Of a stretch of 64,000 bases of DNA, positions 1-26,960 are shown piece after piece (positions within the stretch are counted from its first letter, which is position 1; each line of letters opens with the position of its first letter). Both the position numbers and the translations under genes were made by a program. This DNA is from a virus, in the IMG/VR virus record IMGVR_UViG_3300017987_000073, positions 16,563 through 80,562 of that record, one strand, 5' to 3'. The notes beneath the pieces are model-generated. The model worked only from the letters and a program-made list of their open reading frames with translations, was not told the DNA's origin and searched no databases.

Positions 1-198
1 GTGCTTCCACTTGATCCCCACCTTCCGGATGAAGGGAGCCGCGCTCCCCGACTCGATCCGGTCCTCGGACTTGTGCGAGACCCGCCCGCACTCCTCGACC
101 AGCCGGAGGGCGTGATCCGCCCACGCCGAGTCGTACTTCGGGGTGATCATCTCGGCGTGGGGTCTCACCACGACCAGCTCCGCTCTCTTCTCGGTCAT
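1..198 (-). CDS. thyX: FAD-dependent thymidylate synthase ThyX, N-terminal part (runs off the window)
   Basis: Not in the ORF track; translated by hand from ATG 198 (ATGA overlap with the dCMP deaminase stop): MTEKRAELVVVRPHAEMITPKYDSAWADHALRLVEECGRVSHKSEDRIESGSAAPFIRKVGIKWKH. This matches the ThyX N-terminal pattern E-x-x-GR-x-x-x-KSE...F...H. Confidence 0.75.
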   Translation of the reverse strand, partial: MTEKRAELVVVRPHAEMITPKYDSAWADHALRLVEECGRVSHKSEDRIESGSAAPFIRKVGIKWKH

Positions 199-827
199 AA
201 CAGCCTCCCTTTCAACCGCTCGACGCCCAGTTGCGCGAGCTCGACCCCGGCGCGCCGGAGCAGTTTGCAAGCCTCCTCCGAGAGCCCGTACCGGCTCCCG
301 TAGTCCTCGGCGAAGACGACCCGCGAGATCCCGACCCGAAGGAACCGCTTCGAGCAGTCCCAGCAGGCGCTCGCCGTCGTGTAGACCGTCCCGCCCTTCG
401 GGGACACCCCGTCGAGCGCGCACTGGAGGAGCGCGTTCTCCTCCGCGTGAAGCGTCCGAACGCAGTGACCCCCGCTCATCAGGTGCCCCCCGACCAACTT
501 CGCCCCGCACTCGGGGCAGAGCGGCGGTCCGTCGTCCCGCGGCCTCACCTCCAGGTTGGGCGCGGCCGCGATCAACTCGACCTCCGCTCGATCGGCCTCC
601 CACTCGCACTCGGGACAACGATACTCGTCGCAGTGGGGCTCCCCCGGGGGGCTCCCGTTGTACCCCCCGGCGATTATCCGGTTGTCCACCGTGATCACAG
701 CCCCGACCCCGTGCCTCCCCGGGTCGAAGAGGAGCTCCGGTCCGCGGTCGCAAGTGGAGCGCGTCGCCGCCAGATGAGCGTGCAGCATGAAGAACTCGTC
801 CCAGGGGAGACGTGGAATTCTGAACAT
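195..827 (-). CDS. dCMP deaminase with an inserted CPEC...CPEC zinc ribbon
   Basis: W-D-E-F-F-M start, RSTC, VGAVI, GYNG, HAEENAL and CWDC zinc-deaminase motifs. Confidence 0.92.
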   Translation of the reverse strand: MFRIPRLPWDEFFMLHAHLAATRSTCDRGPELLFDPGRHGVGAVITVDNRIIAGGYNGSPPGEPHCDEYRCPECEWEADRAEVELIAAAPNLEVRPRDDGPPLCPECGAKLVGGHLMSGGHCVRTLHAEENALLQCALDGVSPKGGTVYTTASACWDCSKRFLRVGISRVVFAEDYGSRYGLSEEACKLLRRAGVELAQLGVERLKGRLL

Positions 828-2260: not shown

Positions 2261-4972
2261 CTAGCCGCAACCGTTGGTGGTGCCGCACGTGGGGCACCGG
2301 TGACAAGCGCCGTTCGGCTCCATGATCGAGCCGCAGTTCGAGCAGGGTGGGCCCGAGACGTGTCGGTGTCGATTACTCGGAACCTCCTCCACCTCGATCG
2401 ACGGCGTCCTCTCCCCTCGCCGCACCCCGTCCGGAAACTCGATCTCGAGCCATCGGAAGATGTAGTCCAGGACGGAGGTAGTCAGTCCGATCTCCTGGTT
2501 CGAGCTGTACCCCGCCGGCTCGAACCGGGTCCGGACGAACTTCTCCTTCAGCACCTCGAACGGGGCTCCATACTGGAGCGCGATCGACGTCGAGGTCGCC
2601 CACGCGTCCAGGAGCCCGGAGACCGTGCTCCCCGTCTTCGCCATCACCACGAAGATCTCCCCGAGTCGTCCGTCGTCGTGCATCCCCGCCGTCACGTACC
2701 CCTCGTGACCGGCGACGTCGATCTTGTGCGTCAAGCTCCGCCGCGTCCCGGGGAGCTTCCGCCGACCGATCACCTTCTCCGGGGGCGTCCACGCGAGGTC
2801 GAGCGTTCGCTTGTTCCCGTTTCCGTTCTTCTTCTTGACCTTGGTCTCGAGCGGCTGGGACTCCTTCGACCCGTCCCGGTAGATGGCGATCGACTTCAGT
2901 CCCAGGTGCCACGACAGGTCGTAGACCGCCTTGACGTCCTCCACCGTGGCGTCGGCCGGGAGGTTGACCGTCTTCGAGATCGACCCGCTCAGGAACGGCT
3001 GAACCGCCCCCAGCATCCGGACGTGCCCCTCCCAGGGGATCGACCTCCCCGCCGTGTCGGGGAGCGCGCAGTCGAAGACCGGGAGGTGCTCCTCCCTCAC
3101 GACCCCGTCGAGGCGCCCCGTCTCCCGGAGCTGGCGAACGGCTCGCTTCATATCACCCACCGGGTACCCGAGCCGCAGGAGCGCCCGATCGACCGCCCGG
3201 TTCTCGTAGGTCATCTCCCCGCCCCCGACCAGCTTCTTCGTCTTCAGAAGCGCCAGATCCGGCTCGATCCCCGTCGTGTCGCAGTCCATCATAAACGCGA
3301 TCGTCCCCGTCGGCGCGAGTAGGGTCGTTTGAGCGTTCCGAAACCCGTGCTCCCCCCCGAGCTCGACCGCCTCGTCCCACGCCTCCCGAGCGCGGACGAC
3401 CAGGTCCACCGGGGCGAGGGCGTACTCCTCCTGAATCGCCGTCCGGTGCCGATCGATCACGCCCCGCATCGCCGCGGCGTTCGCCGCGTACCCGACGAAG
3501 GGCCCCTTGACCGCGGCGATCTCCGCCGCGCGCCGGTAGGCGACCCCCGTCATCAGAGCGGTCACCCCCGCGGCGAACTCCCGGCCGGCCTCCGAGTCGT
3601 AGGGGAGACCTCTCGCCATCAAAGTCGCCCCGAGGTTCGCGTACCCGAGCCCCAGCGGTCGAAACGTCCGACTGTTCTCGTGGATCCCCTTGGTGGGGTA
3701 GCTCGCCCGGTCGACCAGGATCTCCTGGGCGAGGATCAACGTCTCCACCGCGTGGGTGAAATGATCGATCAGGAACCCTCCCCCCGAGTCCAAGAACTTC
3801 AGGAGGTTGATCGAGGCGAGGTTGCAGGCGCTCTCGTCCAGGAACATAAACTCCGAACATGGGTTCGAGGCGTTGATCCTCCCGTCCGTCGGGCAGGTAT
3901 GCCAACGGTTCGCCGCGTCGTCGAACTGGAGTCCAGGATCCCCGCACGCGTGCGACGTCTCCGCGATCAGGTCCAGGAGCTCGCGAGCGTTCACCTCCCC
4001 GACCTCCTCGCCCGTCTTCCGCGCGATCAGCGGCCACCTCTCGCCGGCGTCCGCCGCCCGCATAAAGGCGTCCGTCACCCGAATCGAGTGGTTCGCGTTC
4101 TGGAAGAACACCGACGCGTAAGCCTCCCCGTCGATCCCCTCGCCGTACCCCGCCCGCACGAGCGCCCGCGCCTTCTCCTCCTCGGCGCGCTTGCACTTGA
4201 CGAACTCCACGATGTCCGGGTGGTCGACGTTCAACGAGACGATCTTCGCCGCCCGTCGCGTCCGACCCCCCGACTTGATCACGCCGGCGAACGCGTCGTA
4301 ACCCTTCATAAAGGAGATCGGACCGGACGCGGTCCCGCCCGTCGAGAGCTGCTCCTCCCGACCGCGCAGGTTGGATAGGTTCACGCCGGCGCCGCTCCCG
4401 TACTTGAAGATCATCCCCTCGGTCTTCGCCAGGTCGAGGATCGACTCCATCGTGTCCTTCACGTGGTTGATGAAGCACGCCGAGCACTGCGGCCGCTCCT
4501 CCACCCCCACGTTGAACCAGACCGGGGAGTTGAACGCCGCCCGCTGCGTCACCAGGAGGTGGGCGAGCTCGGCCTCAAACGCCCCTCGATCTTCACCCAC
4601 CTCGAAGTACCCGTCCGCCAACCCCCAGTCGGCGATCGTCCGGACGACCCGCTCGATCAACCCCCGAACCGAGTCCTCCCGCTCCGGCGTCCCGAGGCGC
4701 CCGCGAAGGTACTTCGAAGCGACCACGTTGACCGCCATCTGACTCCAGTTCTCCGGCGCCTCGACCCCCGTTTGCTCGAAGACCACCCCGCCCTTCCCCT
4801 CGATCCTCGCGTCGCGTCGCTTCCACGGTCCCGCCCCCTCGAAGACCCGATCCAACCATTCACCCCTCTCGGTGAAGAGTCGCTTGACCCTCCTCCGAGG
4901 TCCCATCTCCTCGCGCGTCTCCGTCCTCCTGACTTCCTTGACTTCCGTCGTGACCGTGAGCTCCGGTGCCAT
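2261..4972 (-). CDS. nrdJ: class II (adenosylcobalamin-dependent) ribonucleotide reductase
   Basis: FNSPVWFN, QCSACFI, RRAAK, NPCSEF, CNLASINL, APTGTI and SISKTVN motifs; C-terminal domain ending CxxC...CxxC...C; ATG 4972 with AGGAG RBS. Confidence 0.96.
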   Translation of the reverse strand: MAPELTVTTEVKEVRRTETREEMGPRRRVKRLFTERGEWLDRVFEGAGPWKRRDARIEGKGGVVFEQTGVEAPENWSQMAVNVVASKYLRGRLGTPEREDSVRGLIERVVRTIADWGLADGYFEVGEDRGAFEAELAHLLVTQRAAFNSPVWFNVGVEERPQCSACFINHVKDTMESILDLAKTEGMIFKYGSGAGVNLSNLRGREEQLSTGGTASGPISFMKGYDAFAGVIKSGGRTRRAAKIVSLNVDHPDIVEFVKCKRAEEEKARALVRAGYGEGIDGEAYASVFFQNANHSIRVTDAFMRAADAGERWPLIARKTGEEVGEVNARELLDLIAETSHACGDPGLQFDDAANRWHTCPTDGRINASNPCSEFMFLDESACNLASINLLKFLDSGGGFLIDHFTHAVETLILAQEILVDRASYPTKGIHENSRTFRPLGLGYANLGATLMARGLPYDSEAGREFAAGVTALMTGVAYRRAAEIAAVKGPFVGYAANAAAMRGVIDRHRTAIQEEYALAPVDLVVRAREAWDEAVELGGEHGFRNAQTTLLAPTGTIAFMMDCDTTGIEPDLALLKTKKLVGGGEMTYENRAVDRALLRLGYPVGDMKRAVRQLRETGRLDGVVREEHLPVFDCALPDTAGRSIPWEGHVRMLGAVQPFLSGSISKTVNLPADATVEDVKAVYDLSWHLGLKSIAIYRDGSKESQPLETKVKKKNGNGNKRTLDLAWTPPEKVIGRRKLPGTRRSLTHKIDVAGHEGYVTAGMHDDGRLGEIFVVMAKTGSTVSGLLDAWATSTSIALQYGAPFEVLKEKFVRTRFEPAGYSSNQEIGLTTSVLDYIFRWLEIEFPDGVRRGERTPSIEVEEVPSNRHRHVSGPPCSNCGSIMEPNGACHRCPTCGTTNGCG

Positions 4973-4980
4973 CTCTCCTC

Positions 4981-5340
4981 CTAGAATCCGCAGGCGTCCA
5001 GGCGCCTGATGAACTTGGTTTTGAACTGCTCGAGCGTCCAGCTCGACGCCGGCGTGCTCCCCCCCTCGAACTCCTCGGAACAGAATCGGGCGATCTCGCC
5101 GGCGATCCGCCGATCCTCCGGCGCCAATCTCTTGATGAACAGCGAAACGTCGAAGATCCCCTCCTCCACCGGACTCCACCGGATCAACGACGACAACTTC
5201 TCCAGGTCGTACCGCCGCGCGAACGACGGTCGCTCCCACTTCCCGAACCTCTTGACGAACTCCTCGTCCCCCTCCGTCGCCTCCCTGACCCGCTGCACCG
5301 CGCTCTCGACCAAATTGTCCACGACCGAACCCTTCGACAT
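4981..5340 (-). CDS. hypothetical protein
   Basis: GAGGAG RBS, phage-like codon pattern. Confidence 0.65.
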   Translation of the reverse strand: MSKGSVVDNLVESAVQRVREATEGDEEFVKRFGKWERPSFARRYDLEKLSSLIRWSPVEEGIFDVSLFIKRLAPEDRRIAGEIARFCSEEFEGGSTPASSWTLEQFKTKFIRRLDACGF

Positions 5341-6327: not shown

Positions 6328-6671
6328 TCGCTCCCTCCTATCAGGCGAAGCACCGCCTCCGCCTCGTTGGTCATCATCGCGTGCACCACCCGGGCCACCA
6401 CCCGCCAGAACGCCCCGCCCTGGCGGTCCCGCGGAAGATCGAGATCCCGGTCGTCCTGGAGGAGCTCGAGGTGTTGATCCACCGAAAGCACCGGCCCGAG
6501 CGTCCGGAGCCTCTCCTCCGGCTCCGGAGCCGAGACGTTCCCCGCGACCAGCGCCTTCCCCAGGTCCCGCGCCACCTCCTCCGGGCAGTCCCTCAGCTCG
6601 CCCTCGACCCGCGCCCGCTCCAGGAGCCAGGCGAGCGTCGAGCTTCTGATCACCGCGTAGCCGTCGCTCAT
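6324..6671 (-). CDS. hypothetical protein
   Basis: ATG 6671 (MSDGYAV) overlaps the upstream stop. Confidence 0.65.
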   Translation of the reverse strand: MSDGYAVIRSSTLAWLLERARVEGELRDCPEEVARDLGKALVAGNVSAPEPEERLRTLGPVLSVDQHLELLQDDRDLDLPRDRQGGAFWRVVARVVHAMMTNEAEAVLRLIGGSE

Positions 6672-7351
6672 TCCAACCCCCTCGCGTCGAACCGCGCCGG
6701 TCCGAGCCCGACCCCCGGGAAGTGCTTGTGACGCTCCGTCCCGTCCGCCAAGTCGACCAACTTCTTCGCGGCCCCCTCCACCGGCGCCGTCTCCGCGTCC
6801 ACCGGGACCTCCGCCTCGGGCAGTCGCCGCACCCCGACCAGCTCCGGAGCCAGCAGGTGGTAGACCCCCAAGTTCGGCGGTCGGTGCCAATAGTCGAGGG
6901 CGATCCGGAGCGCGTGGTCCATCACCTCGTGGATCTGCACCTTCGCCCGCGTGGTGAAGGACGAGGGCTCACTCGTCGTCCCCAGCGTCACGAACCGCTT
7001 GACCGGCGCGCCGGCGTTCACCAGGTTCAGGAGAAGGTCGACCCCGCCGTTGACGTACCCGCTCCACGCCACCCGGTAGAGGGCCCACTCCCGCTCCACC
7101 GGGTGTCGACACGCCAGGTGAATCACCGCCTCGACCTCCCCGAACCGCTCCACCTGGAAGTGCGCGTGGTTCACGTCCGCCCGGACGTAGGTCACCGAAT
7201 GCTGTGGGTTCCGGAACTTCGGCTCCTCCCCCTCGTCCAGCCAGCACGTCGAGTGATCGTCCACCACGATCGCTCGGTGCCCCCGCTCGACCAACTCGTC
7301 GACCACGTGGGACCCCACGAATCCGCACCCACCCGGGATCAGAACGATCAT
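6668..7351 (-). CDS. NAD-dependent epimerase/dehydratase-like (extended SDR), shortened and degenerate
   Basis: GGCGFVGSHVV Rossmann motif, VIHLA; no YxxxK motif visible; only 227 aa. Confidence 0.75.
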   Translation of the reverse strand: MIVLIPGGCGFVGSHVVDELVERGHRAIVVDDHSTCWLDEGEEPKFRNPQHSVTYVRADVNHAHFQVERFGEVEAVIHLACRHPVEREWALYRVAWSGYVNGGVDLLLNLVNAGAPVKRFVTLGTTSEPSSFTTRAKVQIHEVMDHALRIALDYWHRPPNLGVYHLLAPELVGVRRLPEAEVPVDAETAPVEGAAKKLVDLADGTERHKHFPGVGLGPARFDARGLE

Positions 7352-10996: not shown

Positions 10997-11680
10997 CTCC
11001 GACCTCCTTCGCGAACGGCTGATCCAGCACGTTCACGGGTTGCTGCTTCGTCGTCCGCAGGAAGCCCCGACGCTCCGACTCCGGGAGGTCCTCCAGCTTC
11101 ACCTCACCGGCGCGGATCCGGAGCTCCGTCCGAAGGAGCTGGGCGATCACGTAGGCGTCCGCCACGTTCCCCGCGGCCCCGTCCGTCTTCCCGAACTCCA
11201 GGAAGTTCCGACCCTCCCACTTGTCCCGACACGCGAGGACCATGTCCGCCTTCTCGGCGTCCCCCCGCCCCGTAGCGAAGATCTTGACCCCCTGGACGTC
11301 GTAGGCCCTGAAGGGGATCCCCAGAAGCAGGAGCTCGATCCTCACGAGCCCCCCGACCTCTCCGAGCGAGTGCGCGAACGCCTTCCGCGCCAGAGCGTAG
11401 TCCTCGAGCGCCGCGTGGGTCGGCTTCCACTTCGCCAGGAACGCCCCCAGGTTGACCCGCAGGTCCGCCAACCGAAGCACTCGCCCGAGCTCGTCCCCCG
11501 CCTTCACCTCCCGCGGCGCGAGCGCGCCGAGTTCCCTCTGCTTCTTGCGGCGGTCTTGTTGTCGGCGTAGTACATCAGATCGACCAGCGCGCCGTCGACC
11601 AACGCGACGGCCGCCGTCCCGCGCGCCGACTGATCGATCCCGACCAACGGTCCGGACCCCGCTCCGATCAGTCGCTTCAC
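10989..11680 (-). pseudogene. RuvC-like Holliday junction resolvase, split by an apparent 1-nt deletion near 11547
   Basis: N-terminus VGIDQSARGTA (GTG 11680) is in one frame; LEDY, LGEVGG, VKIFATGRGDAEKADMV and NVADAY are in the -1 frame. May be a sequencing indel. Confidence 0.82.
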
Positions 11681-12543
11681 CGCTTCCTCCTGTCTTCCAT
11701 CAACCGCCTCGCCGCGGCCCGCACCTGCTCCGGATCCCGCTCCACGTAGTAACAGACCCGCTTCGCTCGATCCGCCGCGACCAACGTCGTCCCCGTCCCC
11801 CCGAAGAGGTCCATAACCAGACCCCCCTGGGTGCTCCCGGTCCGTACGAGCTTCTCGATCACGTCCAGCGGCTTCTGAGCTCGGTTCAAGAACTCCCCGT
11901 CCTCCCTCCGAAGTCGCTCGACGGTGTGCACCACCGGCCGCTCGACCCACCACGGGCAAACCACCGGGAAGAACTCCCCGTCTGGCGCCGCGACGAACCA
12001 GCTCCGCTGCTTCGGGAGGTTGTCCAGATAGAAGGGAGCCCCGACCCCCGAGCTCATCACCAGGAATTCGCATGCCGAGGCGACGCAGGCCTTTCTGATC
12101 GAGTGTGGCGGGTTCGACTTGGCCCACACGTAGGTGGGCCACACCTTGAGACCCACCGACCGGAGCGCCCGCTTCACGTCGGAGAGCCACCAGTCCGAGG
12201 TCCAGACCCACACGTTCGCGTGTGGCGCCAGACGTCCCGCCGCGGACGCCAACCGCTGGAGGAGTTCCTCCATCTGCGCGTCGTCGACTTTGTCCCACTT
12301 CTCCTCGAAGTGCTGGTCCTTCCGATCCCTCCGCTCCTTGGAGTTGGTCTTCAGGGACGTCAATCGACTCGCCACGTCGGCGAGTTGGTAGGGCGGATCG
12401 GCGACCACGAGCTCGACGTTCCCGATCCCGATCAGGTCCTTCAGGAACTTCGCGTCCGTGGCGTCCCCGCAAGCGACCACGTGACCCACCTCCGGGTCCT
12501 CCCAGACGAACCCGGGAGCTATCTCCGCGCGCAGGTTCTTCAT
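11677..12543 (-). CDS. DNA N6-adenine/N4-cytosine methyltransferase (beta class)
   Basis: DPPY precedes QKP and DLFGGTGTT (SAM-binding motif). Confidence 0.92.
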   Translation of the reverse strand: MKNLRAEIAPGFVWEDPEVGHVVACGDATDAKFLKDLIGIGNVELVVADPPYQLADVASRLTSLKTNSKERRDRKDQHFEEKWDKVDDAQMEELLQRLASAAGRLAPHANVWVWTSDWWLSDVKRALRSVGLKVWPTYVWAKSNPPHSIRKACVASACEFLVMSSGVGAPFYLDNLPKQRSWFVAAPDGEFFPVVCPWWVERPVVHTVERLRREDGEFLNRAQKPLDVIEKLVRTGSTQGGLVMDLFGGTGTTLVAADRAKRVCYYVERDPEQVRAAARRLMEDRRKR

Positions 12544-20035: not shown

Positions 20036-22900
20036 TCACCCCTCTATAACCGCGATGCGGACGCGCGGCGACCTGCGGAGTTCGTCCAGCTCTGGAGGTC
20101 CGAGAACCCCCTTCGGGTTCGCCCGGATCTGATCGATCGCCTTCTGGACCTTCTTCGGGTCCCGAAGCCACTTCTTGTAACGATCGACCAACTTGACTCG
20201 TCGCTTCCGCTGCGAGACGAGCCACCGCGTCCAGTCCTTGCCCGGGTAAACCACCTCCAGGATCCGCTGAGACGCCGGATAAATCACCTTGTCCCAGTAG
20301 TACTCGGGGTCGTAGGTGATCTCGTCGCTCTCCTCGTACTCGTCCCTGGTCACCCCCTGGAGAGGAGACCCGGACTTCGTCACCACGTACTCAACCTTCA
20401 TCCCGACGAAGAACTCCCGCCCGTGCTCCCGGATCTGCTCCGCCAACTTCACGTGGAGGGATTGACTCTTGTACCTGTCCGGCTCCTTGCTGATCCCCTT
20501 CCCGATCACCACGTCGTCGACCGTGAGCTCCCCGGCCAGACAACTGTCGAACGCCGGCTCGACGATCTCCCGCTCCATCTCGTCCGCGTCGATCCCCTTC
20601 ATCAGGATCGCGTCGAGCACCGCCTTCTGGAGAACCCGCGTCTTCCCCGAGCAGTCCGAGCGCATCACCTCGAGCCCCTTGACCTCGACGTGGTCGGTCT
20701 TCCCGCCCTTGTGAGACAGCATCCGGCCGGCGTACCGCTTCTTCTTGACGAAGAAGATCCGGTCGAAGATATCCTCGAACTCCAGGAGGATCGCGTTCCA
20801 CTCCAGGTTGCAGTTGCACTCCTTCAGGATCTCGACGTACCGCTCCTGACAGTAATCGACGAACCGCTCCCCGATCGCGTTGAGCTCGGCGATCCGCTCC
20901 TCCTCCGTCGCCCACTCCTGGTCGGTCGGCGCCAGTTGGATGTACACCGAGTCCGTGTCACCGTAGAGCGGCGCGAACCCGTTGGCCCGGGCGAACTTCT
21001 CGGTCAGTTTGATGAAGAACTGACCGGAAAGGGTGATCGCCTCCGCTAACTCCGTGTCGTAGAACCGACTCCTCGAGTTCCCCATGTCACCGTAGAAGGA
21101 CAGCCCGAGCCTCTTGAACGAGTAGGCGAGTCGGTAGTACAGGAGGAACAGATCGTCCTGAGTCGTCCCCACCACCTCGAGCCGCTGCTTCTGGAGGTCG
21201 GTGTACTTCTTCCGCCGCTCGAGCGTCCTCTCGAACATCTGGGAGATGTACCCCTGTTGATCGATCCGAAAGGTTGTCCCACCCTTGTGAACGACGACCG
21301 GCGACCCATCTTCACCCACCTTGTCCAGATCTATCTCAGGGATCCTGCACAGTTGCGTGGGGTCGAAATCCGGCCGAGATTCGGTCTTGACTATCGTCTC
21401 CGGCGAAATGTTGAAAGCCCGCACCATCGACGGGTACAGGCTCTTGAAGTCGAACGCCGCCACGTTTCGGTGCATCCCCACCTGGGGCGGGAAGACGTAA
21501 GCCCCCTCGTACTGGTCCGGCTTCCTCGGCGACCAGTACCTCGTCCGGAAGTGATGACCCTCCTTGAAGCCCTTCTTCAGGAGAAGCTGATCCACCTTGG
21601 TGGAGATCTGGAAGTCGTTGGGAAACCCGTTGGCGATCCGGCAGAAGAGCTGCTCCACCATCACGAACCCGGTGAACGCCTCGAGCTTCCGGAGGATCGT
21701 CGAGTCCAACCGGTTGTACTCCTCCAGAAGCTCCGGCTCGTACCGGTACAGGTTGATGAACTTCGGCGTGATCCCCGGCCGCCGCTCCCGGAAGATCGTC
21801 CTCCAGTCCAGCTTCTTGATCTTCAGGACCTTGTCCCCGATCGAGTCCAGCGAGAACGAGATCGCGTCCCCACCGGCGCGGACGTAGTGCCGCTTGAAGA
21901 TCGGCAGGGGGTCCACGAGGAGGTTGTACCTCCAGTCGACGAAGATCTTGTGGTGGTAGAATCGATAGATCAGGACCGGGAAGTCGAACCCCGTCCCGTT
22001 CCACGCGCAGTGGACGTCGTACTTGCTCAGGCACCGCCTCTTGAACTCGAGAAGCATCTCCCGCTCGGCCTCGTCCGTCTCCTCCCGCAGGATCACGAAG
22101 CCCTGGTCGTCGGGGTCGTCCTCGACCCGGTCCCCCTCCCACGCTATCGACAGGATCCGGTTGTGCTCCTTGTTGTCGAAGCCACCGACGGAGTCGTCCG
22201 TCTCGATGTCGATGAATCCCATGTGAAACTTGGGGTTGATCCGAATATCGTAGTCCGTGAGGAAGCGTTGCTTCGGCGTCAGGTCCGCCTCGAGCGGCTC
22301 GACTCCCTTCCGGTCGCACCACCGGAGCGTCCAGTGAACGTCGGTCCACCGGTCCCGGTCCTGCGGAAACCTCACCGCCTGCGGCCGCTCCCCGAGCCAG
22401 AAGGCGTCGGCCCAGTGACCCCCGTACTCCGGGTCCCCTACCCGCTGAAAGTACCGCTTCCGGTTGAACTTGGGGAAGTTCTGCTCGATGTAAACTCGAT
22501 AGTAAAGCTCCGGAAAACGCGGATCAGGCTCGACCCGCTTCGCGTGGTTTCGACAGAGCCAGGCCCACTTATCCTCGGGCACCTTCCGGTAGTCCTCCGC
22601 CGTGATGTAGAAGTACCACTCGAACGGGTGGACCTCCTTCACCCGCCTCCCGGTCGCCGGGTCCCTCGTCAGGAGGACGATATCCTTCCCGTCCGACCAC
22701 CCGTGGTAGTAGTAGGTGTGAGGGTTGAAGACGAAGGAGGAGTCCTTCATCTCGTCGAAGTCAGCCGCCTCCGCGAGGTCCTCGAACGCCCGCTTGTCCT
22801 TGACCTTCTTGGAGTCGATCGCCTGCTCGTACTGGGCCCGGTGCTCCACCTTCTCCGAGAGGTCGTCCTCGAGCGCCTGGGTGTCCGAGTCCTGGATCAG
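20036..22900 (-). CDS. family B DNA polymerase with 3'-5' exonuclease (start uncertain)
   Basis: ExoI DIETD, ExoII WNGTGFD, ExoIII YNRLD, motif A DFKSLYPS, motif B KRLGLSFYG, motif C YGDTDS, KKRYAG, KGLE..RSD. Confidence 0.95.
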   Translation of the reverse strand: MIQDSDTQALEDDLSEKVEHRAQYEQAIDSKKVKDKRAFEDLAEAADFDEMKDSSFVFNPHTYYYHGWSDGKDIVLLTRDPATGRRVKEVHPFEWYFYITAEDYRKVPEDKWAWLCRNHAKRVEPDPRFPELYYRVYIEQNFPKFNRKRYFQRVGDPEYGGHWADAFWLGERPQAVRFPQDRDRWTDVHWTLRWCDRKGVEPLEADLTPKQRFLTDYDIRINPKFHMGFIDIETDDSVGGFDNKEHNRILSIAWEGDRVEDDPDDQGFVILREETDEAEREMLLEFKRRCLSKYDVHCAWNGTGFDFPVLIYRFYHHKIFVDWRYNLLVDPLPIFKRHYVRAGGDAISFSLDSIGDKVLKIKKLDWRTIFRERRPGITPKFINLYRYEPELLEEYNRLDSTILRKLEAFTGFVMVEQLFCRIANGFPNDFQISTKVDQLLLKKGFKEGHHFRTRYWSPRKPDQYEGAYVFPPQVGMHRNVAAFDFKSLYPSMVRAFNISPETIVKTESRPDFDPTQLCRIPEIDLDKVGEDGSPVVVHKGGTTFRIDQQGYISQMFERTLERRKKYTDLQKQRLEVVGTTQDDLFLLYYRLAYSFKRLGLSFYGDMGNSRSRFYDTELAEAITLSGQFFIKLTEKFARANGFAPLYGDTDSVYIQLAPTDQEWATEEERIAELNAIGERFVDYCQERYVEILKECNCNLEWNAILLEFEDIFDRIFFVKKKRYAGRMLSHKGGKTDHVEVKGLEVMRSDCSGKTRVLQKAVLDAILMKGIDADEMEREIVEPAFDSCLAGELTVDDVVIGKGISKEPDRYKSQSLHVKLAEQIREHGREFFVGMKVEYVVTKSGSPLQGVTRDEYEESDEITYDPEYYWDKVIYPASQRILEVVYPGKDWTRWLVSQRKRRVKLVDRYKKWLRDPKKVQKAIDQIRANPKGVLGPPELDELRRSPRVRIAVIEG

Positions 22901-23484
22901 GTCAGCGCCGGCTCGAAAGCCTCCCTGATCCTCCTCGCGTCCCTCTCCAGGTTCGTCCACTTCCGAAGCGTCGAGATCGGGTGACGCAGGAGCACCGCCT
23001 CCGCGAGCGTCCCGTCCACCCTCCTCCGACTCCCGAAGTCGCTTAACCCGAGGGGGGCGCCCGCCGCCCTCCCGAAGACCAAAACCCTCCTCAAGTTCGG
23101 AAGGATCTCCAGTTCTCTCCTCAAGTGAATCTTCCAGCACGTCTCGACCTCCTCCGGTCTGAGTTCTCGGTTCCCCGGCGTCGCGCACTTCACCGCGTTC
23201 GTCGCGTAGACCTCCCGAAGGTCCAGCTCGGCGACCCTCGACAGATGCCAGAACGCCCGCGCCGCCCCGCGGAGCTTCAGCGCGGCCGCCCTGGACCCGA
23301 GCCGCCCGAGGAGCGGCGCCAAAAAGCACCCCACGCACCCCCACCCCTCGGCCACGACAGATGGGTTCAACCCCACGACCGCGATCCTCGCCCCCGCCGG
23401 CCCGTACCCGACGCACCTCGGGAGACCGAGGTCACCGAGCCCGCAGGCGCGGCAAGCTCCGGTTCTTCTCAAGAGCACTCGCAC
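22897..23484 (-). CDS. uracil-DNA glycosylase superfamily protein (family 4/5-like Fe-S scaffold, divergent)
   Basis: CRAC, VVGLNP motif A, YATNAVKC..PGNR..PEEVETC, VFGRAA, RHP motif B. Confidence 0.85.
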   Translation of the reverse strand: MRVLLRRTGACRACGLGDLGLPRCVGYGPAGARIAVVGLNPSVVAEGWGCVGCFLAPLLGRLGSRAAALKLRGAARAFWHLSRVAELDLREVYATNAVKCATPGNRELRPEEVETCWKIHLRRELEILPNLRRVLVFGRAAGAPLGLSDFGSRRRVDGTLAEAVLLRHPISTLRKWTNLERDARRIREAFEPALT

Positions 23485-24007
23485 CCAAGATCCCCGCGTT
23501 CAACGCCGTCTCGACCCCTCGGATCAACTCCTCCCTCGCCTTCGTCCGATCCGAGGTCTCGATCCCCAGCAGGTTTCCCCCGAGCTTCAGCCACTCGTTC
23601 GCCACCTGGTAAAACGAACTCTGAATCTTTATCTCCGTCTCCAGCGTCCGCCGCGGAACCCCGTCCCGCTCGATCACCCGACGCCGAGCCGCTTCGACCG
23701 GACAGTCCAACAGGAAAACCCACACGCTCGCTGCGAGGTACCGCTTCAGGTCGTGGGAGTACCCCCTCATACCGTCGTACACGACCGAGGAGAGCGCCCA
23801 GCGGTCCGCCACGAAGTCGAAGCGCCGCGAGAACGCCAGCAGATCGAAGTTGCACTGAATCCCCAGCTTGTAGATCTCCACGTCCGAGAGCTCCCCGATC
23901 GCCCCGTGCCGCACCGAGTCGCGGAAGACGAAGAACCCGAACTGCTTCAGCGCCTCGCACGCCGTGGTCTTCCCCACGCCGTCGATCCCCTCGATCGCGA
24001 TCAGCAC
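23432..24007 (-). CDS. thymidylate/dNMP kinase
   Basis: IAIEGIDGVGKTT P-loop, DRW.LSS.VY, LDCPVEAARRR; GTG 24007. Confidence 0.88.
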   Translation of the reverse strand: MLIAIEGIDGVGKTTACEALKQFGFFVFRDSVRHGAIGELSDVEIYKLGIQCNFDLLAFSRRFDFVADRWALSSVVYDGMRGYSHDLKRYLAASVWVFLLDCPVEAARRRVIERDGVPRRTLETEIKIQSSFYQVANEWLKLGGNLLGIETSDRTKAREELIRGVETALNAGILGASALEKNRSLPRLRAR

Positions 24008-25061
24008 GACGCCACCCCCTCCGAGGGTTGTCCGGACGGCCCGGCCCAAAAGCCCGCCTTGCCATCGACCTCGAAGAGCTGTCGATCGGTCCTCGCCAGG
24101 TCCTCGAAGGTGACGTCCTCCGGTCGATCCTCCTTCGCACCCGGTATCACGATTCCTAGCTGCCTGGAGATCGTCTCCCGATCCGAGCACGCCTCGTTGA
24201 ACTGCGCGACGTTCGGATCAGCGGGACCCGGACCCTTCACCTGGTTCCGCCACACGATCGGTACAGACACCCGAACGCCTCCGCCGTCGTGTGCGCCCGG
24301 TGGTAGCAGCACGCCTCGACGAAGTCGCACCGCGGCCGGAGCCACTTCGAGAGGTAGGGAAACGCGTCGTCCTTCCCGAGCCTGTCCCGCAGGAGCCACG
24401 CCACCGCGACCGTGTCCTCCGCCTCGCTGAACGTCATCCGCTTGGCGCAGAGGTTCTTCAGCGCGGCGTAGTTAATCGACATCACGAACCGGTGCACGCA
24501 CGAGATCGGGAGCAACTCCCGCGCCTCCTGCCAGGAGGTCACCCCGTCCGACAGAAACTGACCGTAAGCTCGCTTCGCGTGCTCCGCCACGTCGATCGCC
24601 TTCTTCAGCTTCATCGGATCCCGCCACGTCGACTCGTGGAACCGAAAGGGGACGTCCGCGTGGTTGTTGTCCCGCGTCCCGAGCGACGCGAAGACCACCC
24701 CGAGCCTCGCCCGGGCGATCTGGTCGAAGCTCCACCTCGAGAGCCCCTGCACCGCGAAGGTGAACTTCGGCGCCTCGAGCGCCAGGGGAAGCGCCCGCCC
24801 CATAAGCACCGACCGCACCACCTCGAATCGGTGCTCCGGCTTTGTCCGATCCCACCTTATCGCCTGGTTCGAGACCGCCGATCCCCAGGTCGCCACCGCC
24901 ATCGTGAAGAGCGACCGGTAGGGGTTCATCGGCGCGTCGATCAGATCCACCTGAATCCCCTCGACCCCTCGGAAGTACCGCGTCTTGACCCGCGGCGCCT
25001 GGTGAGGGAGCGTCCCCAGTTGCTCCCGTATTTCCCTGATTATCTCCGCTCTGCTTCTCAT
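24001..25061 (-). CDS. divergent ThyX-fold flavoprotein; reading frame stops at 24237, with a probable C-terminal continuation to 24001 after a frameshift near 24250
   Basis: LEAPKFTFAVQGLSR..DQIARAR, EARELLP, IN...L.N....R match ThyX topology; ATG 25061. Confidence 0.82.
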
Positions 25062-26014
25062 CTCGACCCCTCCAAAATTCTGCTCACCTCCTCGAGCGCC
25101 CGCCCAAGGTCGGAGACCTTCGTCGCCCCCTCCACGTCGATCCCCCGGTTCAACTCCCCGGCCACCAGCACCACCCGCCGACCGATCCCCACGACGTCGG
25201 ACGCGACGACCGGGTCGTCCTCCACCATCGCCACGAGTCCCGGGAAGTCGTCGAGGATCTTCCGGTGCTTCTCCGGGTGGAAGAGGATCCCGTCGAACCG
25301 AAGTTTGTTTGAGTTGAGCCACTCCAAAGTGTCGGCGTAAATCCGACTGAAGCGCCAGTAAGGACGACGCGAGAGGAGAACCACCGTCCCACCGGCCGCG
25401 CGAATCCCGTCCAGGAGCTCCTTCGCCCCCTCCTTCACCCCCTGGAACCGTTTCTCCCCGCTCCGACGGTAGTGATCCTTGCTGATTTCGTAACCCTCCG
25501 CCCCGATACTCGCCTTCAAATCGGCTCGCGTCTCCGCGTTCACGTCGTTCGGAAGTGACTTCCGCGCGAACTTCAGGTACGAGGTCGGCCAGTCGTTAAG
25601 AACCCCGTCGACGTCCACCCCGACGATCGGGTCGCTCGGAGAGATCGCCCGGAGCCGCCGCTCCATCCCGTACCGACACTCCACGACCTGACTCTTCCTC
25701 CCGAACTCCTCGAAGACCTCGGCCGCCGTGAAGCCCCAGACGTTCGCCAGGCCCAGCAGGAACTTGAAGCAGTCGACCCACTCCTCGAGCGCGTTGGACC
25801 GCACCACCTCCCCGCCTCCGGCTTGGTGCATCTTCCAGGGCGTCTCCCGGAGGAACTCGTGGAGCTCCCCCTCCACGTGAAGAACGAATTGCTTCGTCCA
25901 CTCCACCCGGCCCGCCTTCGAGAGCTCGTCCAGGTCGAGCCGGTGGTCCTGGAACACCCTCCGATTGAACTCCCGTTGACGATCGAAGATCTCGTCCAGT
26001 CTATCCGATTGCAT
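25058..26014 (-). CDS. all-alpha dUTPase/dCTPase (dUTPase_2/MazG-like) fused to a HAD 5'-nucleotidase-like domain
   Basis: Q..FN, GELHEFL..TPWK, LEEWVDCFKF, K..V...R; then VDVDGVL, LSRRP, TLEWL, EK, VEDDP; ATG 26014. Confidence 0.88.
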   Translation of the reverse strand: MQSDRLDEIFDRQREFNRRVFQDHRLDLDELSKAGRVEWTKQFVLHVEGELHEFLRETPWKMHQAGGGEVVRSNALEEWVDCFKFLLGLANVWGFTAAEVFEEFGRKSQVVECRYGMERRLRAISPSDPIVGVDVDGVLNDWPTSYLKFARKSLPNDVNAETRADLKASIGAEGYEISKDHYRRSGEKRFQGVKEGAKELLDGIRAAGGTVVLLSRRPYWRFSRIYADTLEWLNSNKLRFDGILFHPEKHRKILDDFPGLVAMVEDDPVVASDVVGIGRRVVLVAGELNRGIDVEGATKVSDLGRALEEVSRILEGSR

Positions 26015-26960
26015 ACAACTCCTCCGCGACGTCGTGGATCCGGATCGCGTGGTCCCACCGCGCCATCCGTCCGACGTGTCTGACCAGACCTCCCCACTCC
26101 TCCGCCTCCCTCGAGTCCCCGAGCACCTGCACCCGTGCGCTCGGTCCAACGTGCACCGCCTCGACCGCCTCGCAGAACCCCAACGGGGCGTCGATCGAGT
26201 TGAACTCGTAGACGCACCCCCGCGCGGGAGGCCCGCAGAGGAACTTCACCCGGTCGAAAAGAAGCGCCGGCTCCACGTTGTACAGAAACTCCCGAACACC
26301 CCGCCGCCGCTCCTTGGCGATCCCCACGTTGAACGGCTTCCCCACGACCCACGTCTTCCACCCCGCTGAATACTCCCGCCGATCTCGGAACCCCTGGGTA
26401 TTGGTGAATTCGGGGGTCAGAGAGTCCCAGATCGGCGCCGGGAGGGTGTTGATCACCCGAGTCGCCCGAACGGGTTCCTCCAACCCCTGGACCCGAAGAA
26501 ACGCCTCCACGGCCCCGGAGCTCGTGACCTCGAGCACGCGTCCAGGAACAATCGTCACTCGCGCCTCGAGACGCCGAACCAGTTCATCCACCGAGACGTC
26601 GAACGTCTCGATCCCACCCGAGCGCCCCGAGCTCGCCGCCGAGTCCGGAACCAGCGTCTTCAGACCCTTCAACCCTCGACTCCGGCGGTAGTAGTAGGCG
26701 CGGAGTTCCTCGGGCACTCGGTCCACCACCTCACCACCCGGGGCGATCCAACCGAACCGCACCGTCCGAGGGCGAAACCCTCCCCCTCCAACCTCCTTCA
26801 GGAGCCGCTCCGTCGCCGGAGTCCTCCACAGGTAAGTCGGGGCTAACTCCCGAAGTCGAGAATCACCACCGACGTTGTCCCCGATCACGAGGTCCGCGCG
26901 CAGTATCGCCGCGGCCACGAGCCCGACCGGACCCGCTCCCAACACCACCGTTCTGTTCAT
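26001..26960 (-). CDS. FAD-dependent oxidoreductase (UDP-galactopyranose mutase/protoporphyrinogen oxidase-like fold)
   Basis: VVLGAGPVGLVAA dinucleotide-binding motif, GG motif, VINTLP, C-terminal VGRMARW. Confidence 0.8.
   Translation of the reverse strand: MNRTVVLGAGPVGLVAAAILRADLVIGDNVGGDSRLRELAPTYLWRTPATERLLKEVGGGGFRPRTVRFGWIAPGGEVVDRVPEELRAYYYRRSRGLKGLKTLVPDSAASSGRSGGIETFDVSVDELVRRLEARVTIVPGRVLEVTSSGAVEAFLRVQGLEEPVRATRVINTLPAPIWDSLTPEFTNTQGFRDRREYSAGWKTWVVGKPFNVGIAKERRRGVREFLYNVEPALLFDRVKFLCGPPARGCVYEFNSIDAPLGFCEAVEAVHVGPSARVQVLGDSREAEEWGGLVRHVGRMARWDHAIRIHDVAEELYAIG

What the first reader, a model, noticed from the sequence alone, without database searches (positions are those of the whole stretch)
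24237..25061. ThyX paralogue has lost the signature catalytic residues and gained a Cys-rich tail
Seen: the ThyX motif RHR-x7-S-x-R-Y reads RAR-LGVVFASL-G-T-R-D, so His becomes Ala, Ser becomes Gly and Tyr becomes Asp. The folate-side His of H-x-S/T-x-x-EH is absent (RALPLALEA). The substrate/FAD arginines (EARELLP and N...KR) are kept. The C-terminus carries CDFVEACCYH...GC...SC. Inference from a by-eye alignment: it still binds FAD and a pyrimidine nucleotide but is unlikely to perform folate-dependent methylation, which points to new chemistry and possibly a metal site.
Basis: partly seen in the sequence, partly recalled or inferred. Interest (0 to 1): 0.8.

Follow-up and report, generated by a model that had tools for sequence, protein, structure and literature searches.

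The report
Rewired phage ThyX-like nucleotide enzyme
An uncultured sediment/seawater phage has a normal flavin-type thymidylate synthase and also a second, rewired copy from a virus-only family that always travels with a small flavoprotein and a dUTPase-phosphatase fusion; it probably makes an unusual DNA pyrimidine, though its chemistry is untested.

Summary
Profile-profile alignment against the phage's own canonical ThyX gives RHR to RAR, Ser to Gly, Tyr to Asp, and loss of both histidines of H-x-S-x-x-E-H. The nucleotide-site arginines are kept.

These changes are not decay. They mark a family of about 130 sequences in which G128 is invariant and D131 and N132 nearly so.

The ORF end at 24237 is an error in the record. 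Assemblies of three public runs carry one more C behind 24249. The real gene is 24001-25061 and encodes 353 aa, with a further 83-residue tail.

The AlphaFold2 model (pLDDT 94) has the ThyX fold (Z 16.6). C245, C251, H254 and C270 vary together, which suggests a structural metal site.

The gene belongs to a conserved trio. Its partners are a UGM/amine-oxidase-like flavoprotein (26001-26960) and a dimeric-dUTPase-like/NT5C phosphatase fusion (25058-26014). The fusion protein is present in 31 of 33 related loci, and the reciprocal search finds the ThyX-like gene in 27 of 35. The family is almost absent from cellular genomes.

Best reading: a neofunctionalised flavoenzyme that tailors a pyrimidine dNMP, probably dUMP, for phage DNA. 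The product is unknown.

This scan has flagged the same family on other genomes.

The parts
24001..25061 (-). Full ThyX-like gene, 353 aa once the record's missing base is restored. The ThyX-fold core is about residues 28-244, followed by a C-terminal Cys/His-rich region. The start ATG at 25061 overlaps the upstream stop (ATGA) and follows GGAGGGG.
   Evidence: P0002 is 97% identical over 353 aa. AlphaFold2 pLDDT 94.2. VIA Z 16.6 to ThyX.
24237..25061 (-).
24249..24250 (.). Site of the record's one-base deletion. Run assemblies read one more C here (on the minus strand, GGC CGG AAC instead of GGC GG AAC).
   Evidence: table 4: the C is present in X1 (depth 153), X3 (131) and X6 (4)..
24001..24249 (-). 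C-terminal 83 residues of the ThyX-like protein, out of frame in the record (RNQVKGPGPADPNVAQFNEACSD...GVASC). They are 100% identical to P0002.
24669..24713 (-). Rewritten ThyX signature R117-A-R-L-G-V-V-F-A-S-L-G128-T-R130-D131.
24252..24329 (-). Candidate CCHC metal site: C245-x5-C251-x2-H254-x15-C270.
   Evidence: 68-75/77 conserved. C251, H254 and C270 are replaced together in P0117, P0119 and P0121, and all four are replaced in P0144.
25058..26014 (-). Partner 1: a fusion of a dimeric-dUTPase-like all-alpha NTP pyrophosphatase domain and an NT5C-type HAD 5'-deoxynucleotidase (DVDGV).
   Evidence: Present in 31 of 33 related loci.
26001..26960 (-). Partner 2: a small (319 aa) FAD-type Rossmann flavoprotein of the UGM/amine-oxidase superfamily.
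   Evidence: Present in 25 of 33 related loci. A reciprocal search finds the ThyX-like gene in 27 of 35 loci.
23432..24007 (-). dTMP-kinase-like P-loop kinase. Its GTG start overlaps the ThyX-like stop codon.
22897..23484 (-). Family-4 UDG-like gene directly upstream of the family B DNA polymerase (20036-23416). In relatives, a UDG domain is fused to the C-terminus of PolA.
1..198 (-). 5' end of the phage's canonical thyX. The whole gene is G000:C1:16014-16760. It carries HESILEH and RHRLAAFTQESQRY.
195..827 (-). dCMP deaminase, immediately upstream of the canonical thyX.

Best explanation
The locus encodes an intact, selected, 353-residue enzyme. It belongs to a virus-restricted subfamily of the ThyX (Thy1) fold that is no longer a thymidylate synthase.

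Shown:
- It keeps the ThyX core and the four arginines that hold a pyrimidine deoxynucleoside monophosphate.
- It has replaced the residues that canonical ThyX uses for folate stacking and for completing methyl transfer (positions equivalent to T. maritima H53, H59, H79, S88 and Y91).
- It has gained an invariant G-x-R-D-N loop and a C-terminal region with an apparent CCHC metal site plus invariant D246 and R272.
- It is genetically coupled to a small UGM/amine-oxidase-like flavoprotein and to a dimeric-dUTPase-like/NT5C fusion. A dNMP kinase, a dCMP deaminase and a polymerase with a UDG-like domain are usually nearby.

Inferred:
- The dUTPase-like domain supplies dUMP, or removes dUTP/dTTP.
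- The ThyX-like enzyme modifies C5 of that dNMP on a flavin but stops short of the reduced methyl group. That would give, for example, 5-hydroxymethyl-dUMP or another trapped one-carbon adduct.
- The NT5C domain drains the competing canonical monophosphate.
- The neighbouring kinase re-phosphorylates the product so the phage polymerase can use it.

The identity of the product is not known.
For: Fold and residue mapping:
- Pfam Thy1 is above its cut-off.
- hhalign to canonical ThyX gives 99.5% probability.
- AlphaFold2 pLDDT 94.2, pTM 0.93. VIA Z 16.6 with rmsd 2.2-3.0 A over about 200 residues.

Not a thymidylate synthase equivalent:
- NCBIfam thyX equivalog scores 29.4 bits against a cut-off of 87.9.
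- The signature residues are replaced throughout the family.

Not redundant with ThyX:
- This phage has a canonical ThyX next to a dCMP deaminase.
- 4 of 7 complete relatives also carry both copies.

Under selection:
- About 130 homologues at 36-97% identity share the same invariant residues.
- Inteins sit at four different sites, all inside the conserved motifs.
- The frameshift is a record error.

Genetic coupling:
- The fusion protein is in 31 of 33 loci and the flavoprotein in 25 of 33, despite changes in gene order.
- The reciprocal search with the flavoprotein finds the ThyX-like gene in 27 of 35 loci; most of the rest end at a contig edge.
- In four loci the flavoprotein is fused to the dUTPase-like domain.

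Uracil/thymine side of metabolism:
- The fusion's N-terminal domain is closest to dimeric dUTPases, and its C-terminal domain to the pyrimidine 5'-deoxynucleotidase NT5C.
- G002, a complete genome, has a dCMP deaminase but only the divergent ThyX-like gene.

Virus-restricted:
- Only 3 MAG contigs match among 185,579 species genomes.

Precedent:
- SP-15, a phage with hypermodified thymine, has two Thy1 paralogues. The divergent one was hypothesised to be a hydroxymethyluridylate synthase (PMC5977210).
Against: - No biochemical data exist for any member, and no cultured phage carries the gene.
- Flavin binding is unproven. Three positions that I recall as FAD contacts in T. maritima ThyX are replaced (mapping).
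- The one-carbon donor is unknown, because the folate-stacking His is absent.
- This phage also makes dTMP with its canonical ThyX, so any replacement of T would be partial.
- Three complete relatives have neither canonical ThyX nor ThyA, so a thymidylate synthase role cannot be excluded for them.
- In four related loci a ThyA-family gene with Asp at the Asn177-equivalent position, a cytosine-type signature, lies close to the ThyX-like gene and is directly adjacent in three. This points towards cytosine chemistry rather than uracil.
- I found no post-replicative hypermodification genes among about 30 window proteins scanned.
Confidence: 0.6

Rival explanations
1. It is still a thymidylate synthase. 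On this view the lineage reaches dTMP with different catalytic residues, perhaps using the partner flavoprotein as reductase or one-carbon supplier.
For: - All dUMP-binding arginines are kept.
- Three complete relatives (G002, G014, G024) have no canonical ThyX or ThyA. G002 still has a dCMP deaminase that would feed dUMP to it.
- From my own knowledge, the signature Ser is not a nucleophile in ThyX.
Against: - It coexists with a canonical ThyX in this phage and in 4 of 7 complete relatives. G010 carries a canonical ThyX, a ThyA-like gene and the divergent copy.
- It falls below the TIGR02170 equivalog cut-off.
- The positions equivalent to H53 and Y91, which I recall as required for ThyX activity, are replaced in every member.
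Confidence: 0.15
2. It is a dCMP-directed C5-modifying enzyme, the ThyX-fold counterpart of T4 gp42 or the XP12 dCMP methylase. The new Asp131 would read the cytosine N3/N4 edge.
For: - An invariant Asp replaces Tyr next to the base-contacting Arg. From my own knowledge, an Asn-to-Asp change specifies cytosine in ThyA-family hydroxymethylases.
- The gene set resembles that of T4: an NTP pyrophosphatase, a dNMP kinase, a dCMP deaminase and a thymidylate synthase.
- In the sister 'C-[TS]-G-D' clade, the Arg equivalent to R90 is lost while the Asp is kept.
Against: - R130 (equivalent to R90) and R208 (equivalent to R174), which contact the uracil carbonyls in ThyX, are kept.
- The fused partner domains resemble the uracil/thymine-directed enzymes dimeric dUTPase and NT5C.
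- Some relatives already carry a ThyA-family enzyme with the cytosine-type Asp next to this gene, which would make a second dCMP enzyme redundant.
Confidence: 0.15
3. It is a non-catalytic ThyX-fold protein. It could sequester nucleotides or act as a dominant-negative subunit that poisons host ThyX tetramers, in the way hmU phages inhibit host thymidylate synthase.
For: - Several canonical catalytic and FAD-contact positions are replaced.
- ThyX active sites form at subunit interfaces, so mixed tetramers could be inactive (my own knowledge).
Against: - The invariant residues cluster in the nucleotide site (R109, Q114, R117, R119, R130, R181, R208), with new invariant polar residues D131, N132, D246 and R272.
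- Inteins target these motifs at four sites.
- The obligate linkage to two other enzymes, including gene fusions between those partners, fits a pathway rather than an inhibitor.
Confidence: 0.05
4. It is a decaying pseudogene: a frameshifted, degenerating duplicate of thyX.
For: The record carries a frameshift that truncates the ORF at 24237.
Against: - Assemblies of three runs have the extra C that restores the frame.
- The out-of-frame tail is 100% identical to the intact homologue P0002.
- The substitutions are conserved across the family.
Confidence: 0.02

Closest known systems
Flavin-dependent thymidylate synthase ThyX/FDTS (Pfam PF02511, TIGR02170; T. maritima TM0449, M. tuberculosis Rv2754c)
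   Same: - The same fold: VIA Z 16.1-16.6, rmsd 2.2-3.0 A over about 200 residues; hhalign 99.5%.
- The same S-R-x4-Q-x2-R-x-R scaffold.
- Arginines equivalent to R78, R80, R90, R147 and R174 are kept, as are E58 and N163.
   Different: - 17-18% identity, and below the equivalog cut-off.
- H53, H59, H79, S88 and Y91 equivalents are A, A, A, G and D.
- There is a one-residue insertion in the signature loop.
- New invariant residues N132, D246, R272, W59 and R78.
- About 110 extra C-terminal residues with a CCHC motif.
- Obligate genomic partners.
- It coexists with a true ThyX in the same genome.
PolB, the ThyX paralogue of polyoxin biosynthesis (UMP/dUMP C5-methylase; PDB 4p5a, 4p5b)
   Same: - A neofunctionalised ThyX paralogue acting on a pyrimidine nucleotide, and the only characterised example of one (PMC5954106).
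- Structurally as close as ThyX itself: Z 16.1, rmsd 2.4 A; Foldseek TMt 0.71.
   Different: - PolB is still a folate- and flavin-dependent methylase that acts on both UMP and dUMP (PMC5954106). It belongs to a Streptomyces antibiotic gene cluster.
- This family is phage-borne and has lost the signature residues.
- I did not inspect PolB's motifs residue by residue here.
Bacillus phage SP-15 gp130, the second Thy1-domain protein of a phage with hypermodified thymine
   Same: - A phage with two Thy1 paralogues, one canonical (gp9) and one divergent. The authors hypothesise that the divergent one is a hydroxymethyluridylate synthase (PMC5977210).
- An SDR gene abuts gp130. SDR genes are also frequent near this family and one is present in this window.
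   Different: - gp130 has no R-x-R...G-x-R-D-N motif and no CCHC region.
- tblastn with P0002 against the phage collection listed no SP-15 record; its Foldseek match has E 7e-8 at 13% identity.
- Its function is also untested.
'ThyX-like thymidylate synthase' of actinobacteriophages (e.g. Mycobacterium phage Onyinye gp86)
   Same: Another phage ThyX-fold protein with a rewritten signature (RSR...S-M-R-A) and a Cys-containing C-terminal extension. Foldseek E 2e-13.
   Different: - A different clade: 31% identity over 46% of the query.
- It lacks G-x-R-D-N.
- No flavoprotein/dUTPase-NT5C trio is annotated around it.

Membership tests
ThyX / FDTS (EC 2.1.1.148) | Thy1 domain / ThyX fold | tested here: met
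   Pfam PF02511 50.9 bits against a cut-off of 24.8. hhalign 99.5%. VIA Z 16.6.
ThyX / FDTS (EC 2.1.1.148) | Score above the NCBIfam TIGR02170 equivalog cut-off | tested here: not met
   29.4 bits against a cut-off of 87.9.
ThyX / FDTS (EC 2.1.1.148) | ThyX signature R-H-R-x7/8-S-x-R-Y | tested here: not met
   It reads R-A-R-x8-G-T-R-D. Across the family, G is 77/77 and D is 76/77, while the His position is variable.
ThyX / FDTS (EC 2.1.1.148) | Histidines of H-x-S/T-x-x-E-H (T. maritima H53 stacks folate) | tested here: not met
   A90 and A97 align with the two His residues. E96 is kept 77/77.
ThyX / FDTS (EC 2.1.1.148) | dUMP-binding arginines (T. maritima R78, R90, R147, R174) | tested here: met
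   R117, R130, R181 and R208 align with them. They are conserved 77, 72, 77 and 77 of 77.
ThyX / FDTS (EC 2.1.1.148) | Bound FAD and dTMP synthase activity | not testable with these tools
   This needs a flavin spectrum, an activity assay or complementation.
Uncharacterised phage 'G-x-R-D-N' ThyX-like family (this report; also earlier scan notes) | S-R-x4-Q-x2-R-x-R-x8-G-x-R-D-N loop | tested here: met
   SRWSFDQIARARLGVVFASLGTRDNN.
Uncharacterised phage 'G-x-R-D-N' ThyX-like family (this report; also earlier scan notes) | C-terminal region C-D-x4-C-x2-H...S-C-G-R...F-N-E-x-C-S-D with invariant D246 and R272 | tested here: met
   Present once the base shown by the run assemblies is restored. 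In the record as written, R272 and everything after it are out of frame.
Uncharacterised phage 'G-x-R-D-N' ThyX-like family (this report; also earlier scan notes) | Synteny with the UGM-like flavoprotein and the dUTPase_2/NT5C fusion | tested here: met
   Window 26001-26960 and 25058-26014 lie directly upstream. The linkage holds family-wide.
PolB-type UMP/dUMP methylase | Ribonucleotide (UMP) use and a nucleoside-antibiotic gene cluster context | tested here: not met
   The context is a phage replication and nucleotide-metabolism module. Substrate use cannot be tested here.

The most novel reading that the evidence does not exclude
The trio of ThyX-like enzyme, mini UGM/amine-oxidase-like flavoprotein and dUTPase-like/NT5C fusion is a previously undescribed phage pathway. 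It would use ThyX-fold flavin chemistry to make a non-thymine 5-substituted pyrimidine deoxynucleotide for the phage genome. That would be the ThyX-fold counterpart of the ThyA-fold hydroxymethylases. The one-carbon unit or the reducing flavin might come from the partner flavoprotein rather than from folate.
Probability: 0.35. Interest if true: 0.85.

Novelty: new variant of a known kind. Interest (0 to 1): 0.72.

Why it matters
Every pyrimidine C5 hydroxymethylase or methylase of phage DNA precursors that I know of has the ThyA fold. The only characterised neofunctionalised ThyX that I found is PolB, from an antibiotic pathway.

A widespread, virus-only ThyX-fold family with its own partners would add a second, flavin-based route to modified DNA bases. 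It would also mark a set of roughly 60-190 kb environmental phages whose DNA may be chemically non-canonical. That matters for restriction and CRISPR evasion, for sequencing bias in viromes, and as a source of new nucleotide-modifying enzymes.

The family is well enough defined to test directly: a high-confidence model, invariant residues and obligate partners are all in hand.

Tried and rejected
- **Single-sequence phmmer of the 274-aa ORF against PDB.** It gave only E of about 0.6 to ThyX. The family profile was needed.
- **Pseudogene reading.** Rejected by the run assemblies.
- **Search for a cultured representative.** tblastn against 50,697 phage records found only distant ThyX or ThyX-like genes. 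Bacillus phage DZ1 has a canonical RHR...SQRY protein. Onyinye gp86 belongs to a different divergent clade.
- **SP-15 gp130 as a possible family member.** Rejected because it lacks the motif.
- **Informative domain fusions of the ThyX-like protein.** The longer forms carry inteins or unannotated extensions only.
- **Profile search with the whole flavoprotein alignment.** It had no conserved stretch usable as a pattern. A 10-sequence subset worked.
- **Post-replicative hypermodification genes in the window.** Pfam scans of about 30 proteins found an RNR, an SDR, an N6/N4 methylase, SSB, an SbcCD-like pair, a resolvase and a primase, but no glycosyltransferase or similar enzyme. These scans did not cover the genome's first 16.5 kb.
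- **Model geometry.** Model coordinates are not exposed, so I could not measure Cys-Cys distances or the position of the C-terminal region relative to the active site.

Full report
**What is in the record.**
On the minus strand, an ATG at 25061 follows GGAGGGG and overlaps the stop of the upstream gene. It opens a 274-codon frame that ends at 24237. This product scores 50.9 bits on Pfam Thy1 against a cut-off of 24.8. It scores only 29.4 bits on the NCBIfam thyX equivalog model, whose cut-off is 87.9.

**The ORF end is an artefact.**
- All 130 homologues found among 5.8 billion proteins are 310-400 aa long and run about 80 residues past the end of the window ORF.
- The closest, P0002 (97% identity, 353 aa), continues SCGRNQVKGPGPADPNVAQFNEACSD...GVASC.
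- The same 83 residues are encoded, letter for letter, in another frame at 24001-24249.
- I laid the assemblies of four public runs on 22500-26200. Three of them carry an extra C behind 24249: X1 at depth 153, X3 at depth 131 and X6 at depth 4. X6 comes from a different study. X5 does not cover the site.

The record therefore lacks one base. The gene is 24001-25061 and the protein has 353 residues. The reads show no other indel anywhere in 22500-26200.

**The residue observation holds.**
I used two independent alignments. One was the 77-sequence family profile against M. tuberculosis ThyX. The other was hhalign of that profile against canonical phage ThyX proteins, including this phage's own copy (probability 99.5%, E 8e-23, 198 columns). 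Both give the same mapping, in T. maritima numbering recalled from memory:

| T. maritima ThyX | This protein |
|---|---|
| H53 | A90 |
| H59 | A97 |
| H79 | A118 |
| S88 | G128 |
| R90 | R130 |
| Y91 | D131 |
| R147 | R181 |
| R174 | R208 |
| R165 | A199 |
| H178 | S212 |

There is a one-residue insertion near G121/V122.

Conservation across the 77 members:

| Position | Conservation |
|---|---|
| G128 | 77/77 |
| D131 | 76/77 |
| N132 | 73/77 |
| R130 | 72/77 |
| E96, R109, Q114, R117, R119, R181, R208, D246, R272 | 77/77 each |
| 118 (the His of RHR) | variable: A49, T10, V5, Q4, S3, M2, I1, H1, others 2 |

The defining change is therefore the G-x-R-D-N loop rather than the missing His.

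**Structure.**
The AlphaFold2 model of P0002 with this alignment has pLDDT 94.2 and pTM 0.93.
- Foldseek gives E 1e-10 to M. tuberculosis ThyX and to PolB.
- VIA-align gives Z 16.6 to M. tuberculosis ThyX (rmsd 2.8-3.0 A over about 210 residues) and Z 16.1 to T. maritima ThyX (rmsd 2.3 A over 203 residues) and to PolB, at 17-18% identity.

hhalign aligns query positions 36-244 to canonical ThyX. The remaining roughly 110 residues are mostly extra.

Within that extra region, C245, C251, H254 and C270 are conserved in 68-75 of 77 members. C251, H254 and C270 are replaced together in P0117, P0119 and P0121. All four are replaced in P0144, while D246 and R272 stay invariant. This pattern fits a structural CCHC metal site plus two functional polar residues. 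I could not measure geometry because model coordinates are not exposed.

**It is a genuine paralogue, and not redundant.**
The window belongs to an 80.6-kb IMG/VR virus record (CheckV 79% complete). The record also encodes a canonical ThyX with HESILEH and RHRLAAFTQESQRY (159 bits). Its start codon lies at window 198, next to a dCMP deaminase. The record has no ThyA.

Among 26 related virus records, 7 are complete:
- 4 carry both a canonical and a divergent Thy1 gene.
- 3 carry only the divergent gene and no ThyA.
- G002, one of those three, still has a dCMP deaminase.

**Conserved context.**
I clustered ORFs from 33 loci: 32 IMG/VR relatives plus this one. Gene order varies between them.
- A dUTPase_2/HAD fusion (window 25058-26014) is present in 31 of 33 loci.
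- A roughly 300-aa Rossmann protein (window 26001-26960) is present in 25 of 33.

*The fusion protein.* Its N-terminal domain is closest to the dimeric dUTPases of Leishmania, Campylobacter and Trypanosoma (Pfam dUTPase_2 in 16 of 21 members). Its C-terminal domain matches NT5C, the pyrimidine 5'-deoxynucleotidase family (12 of 21 members). The catalytic D-x-D and the acidic metal-binding motifs are intact.

*The Rossmann protein.* It models at pLDDT 90.8. Foldseek places it among the amine-oxidase-type flavoproteins (putrescine oxidase, E 1e-12). By profile it is nearest to eukaryotic UDP-galactopyranose mutase (E 3e-7). That match includes the P-F-x-R motif, which I recall as the essential Arg327 of the A. 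fumigatus enzyme.

*Reciprocal test.* A search of viral contigs with the flavoprotein returned 35 loci. 27 of them contain a ThyX-like gene, and most of the rest end at a contig edge. In four loci the flavoprotein is fused to the dUTPase-like domain. Their ThyX-like genes, where the motif could be read, belong to a sister clade that reads C-[TS]-G-D in place of G-x-R-D-N and keeps the Asp.

*Other frequent neighbours.* These are PolA with a C-terminal UDG domain (here a UDG-like gene followed by PolB), an SDR of the epimerase/dehydratase family, a dCMP deaminase, small dNMP-kinase-like proteins, RecA, a primase and DnaB. In this window a dTMP-kinase-like gene starts on the stop codon of the ThyX-like gene.

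**Signs that it is a working enzyme.**
Inteins interrupt family members at four different places: F112/D113, 125/126, N132/133 and F211/C212. Each lies inside a conserved motif. Inteins typically sit in catalytic motifs of essential enzymes (my own knowledge).

**Distribution.**
- Only three contigs match among 185,579 species-representative prokaryote genomes. All three are from MAGs, and one is a phage-sized 111-kb contig.
- No cultured phage among 50,697 records has a member.
- BFVD hits are distant, at 10-24% identity.
- The runs that hold this DNA are sediment and seawater metagenomes.

**Interpretation.**
The protein is a conserved, probably catalytic ThyX-fold enzyme whose nucleotide pocket is preserved. 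The features that define thymidylate synthesis are systematically replaced. It works in a fixed genetic partnership with a second flavoprotein and a pyrimidine-directed pyrophosphatase/phosphatase.

The enzyme set recalls, from my own knowledge, the sets induced by phages that replace or hypermodify thymine: an NTP pyrophosphatase, a 5'-nucleotidase, a dCMP deaminase, a thymidylate-synthase-like enzyme, a kinase and a polymerase with a UDG-like domain.

The literature holds one parallel hypothesis. SP-15, a phage with hypermodified thymine, has two Thy1 paralogues, and the divergent one was proposed to be a hydroxymethyluridylate synthase (PMC5977210). That protein is not a member of this family.

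I therefore favour a C5 modification of dUMP that stops short of the methyl group. dCMP remains a real alternative, for two reasons: the new Asp, and the ThyA-family gene with Asp at the Asn177-equivalent position that lies next to the ThyX-like gene in some relatives. The product, the one-carbon donor and even flavin binding are all unproven.

**Novelty.**
Full-text searches found no description of this family. Earlier notes of this scan flagged the same family on other genomes and reached the same general reading. The points specific to this window are:
- the record's frameshift and its correction from the run assemblies;
- the covarying CCHC site;
- the four intein insertion sites;
- the flavoprotein-dUTPase fusions;
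- the dimeric-dUTPase/NT5C identity of the fusion partner;
- the adjacent cytosine-type ThyA-like genes.

Noticed in passing
window 24249-24250 and 25911: The record differs from the assemblies of public runs by a missing C behind 24249 and by C>T at 25911. The reads show no other indel in 22500-26200. Earlier suggestions that adding or removing a base would fuse the UDG, PolB and kinase frames therefore get no support from the reads.
   Followed up: yes
L009:9060-9794, L011:5208-5687, L014:9312-9968, L034:9255-10001: A short ThyA-family protein (Pfam Thymidylat_synt) lies close to the ThyX-like gene in four relatives, directly upstream of it in three. It keeps the catalytic Cys (VPCSLGYHF) and has Asp where E. 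coli ThyA has Asn177. From my own knowledge, that is the signature of cytosine-specific enzymes.
   Followed up: partly
L048:3959-5290, L049:9941-11251, L056:9926-11185, L057:3153-4391: The UGM-like flavoprotein and the dUTPase-like domain are fused into one ORF of about 420-440 aa. The adjacent ThyX-like genes of L056 and L057 read C-S-G-D instead of G-x-R-D-N; the motif was not found in those of L048 and L049.
   Followed up: partly
proteins P0076, P0153, P0122, P0126, P0166, P0176: Inteins are inserted at four different sites, all in conserved motifs of the ThyX-like family. P0166 also carries a LAGLIDADG domain.
   Followed up: partly
L020:10920-13319 and 21 other loci; window 22897-23484 with 20036-23416: In relatives, the DNA polymerase is a PolA with 3'-5' exonuclease and a C-terminal family-4 UDG-like domain. 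This phage instead has a separate UDG-like gene directly upstream of a family B polymerase.
   Followed up: no
window 6668-7351 (-); cluster 5 in 16 related loci; SP-15 gp129: An SDR of the epimerase/dehydratase family recurs near the trio and is present in this phage. In SP-15 an SDR abuts the divergent Thy1 paralogue gp130. It could be a fourth pathway component.
   Followed up: no
window 2261-5239 (-): A class II (B12-dependent) ribonucleotide reductase with a C-terminal TSCPD domain.
   Followed up: no
window 11677-12543 (-): An N6/N4 DNA methyltransferase. The phage DNA is therefore probably also methylated after replication.
   Followed up: no
L036:2680-3612 (Mycobacterium phage Onyinye gp86): A separate divergent ThyX-like clade in cultured actinobacteriophages. 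It reads RSR...S-M-R-A and has its own Cys-containing C-terminal extension. It could serve as a tractable comparison system.
   Followed up: no
proteins P0164-P0251: A broad, more distant group of ThyX-like proteins has R-[TSQ]-R...G-G-R-D-N-D-W-R-H and no Cys-rich tail. Replacement of the Tyr by Asp therefore extends well beyond the family studied here.
   Followed up: no
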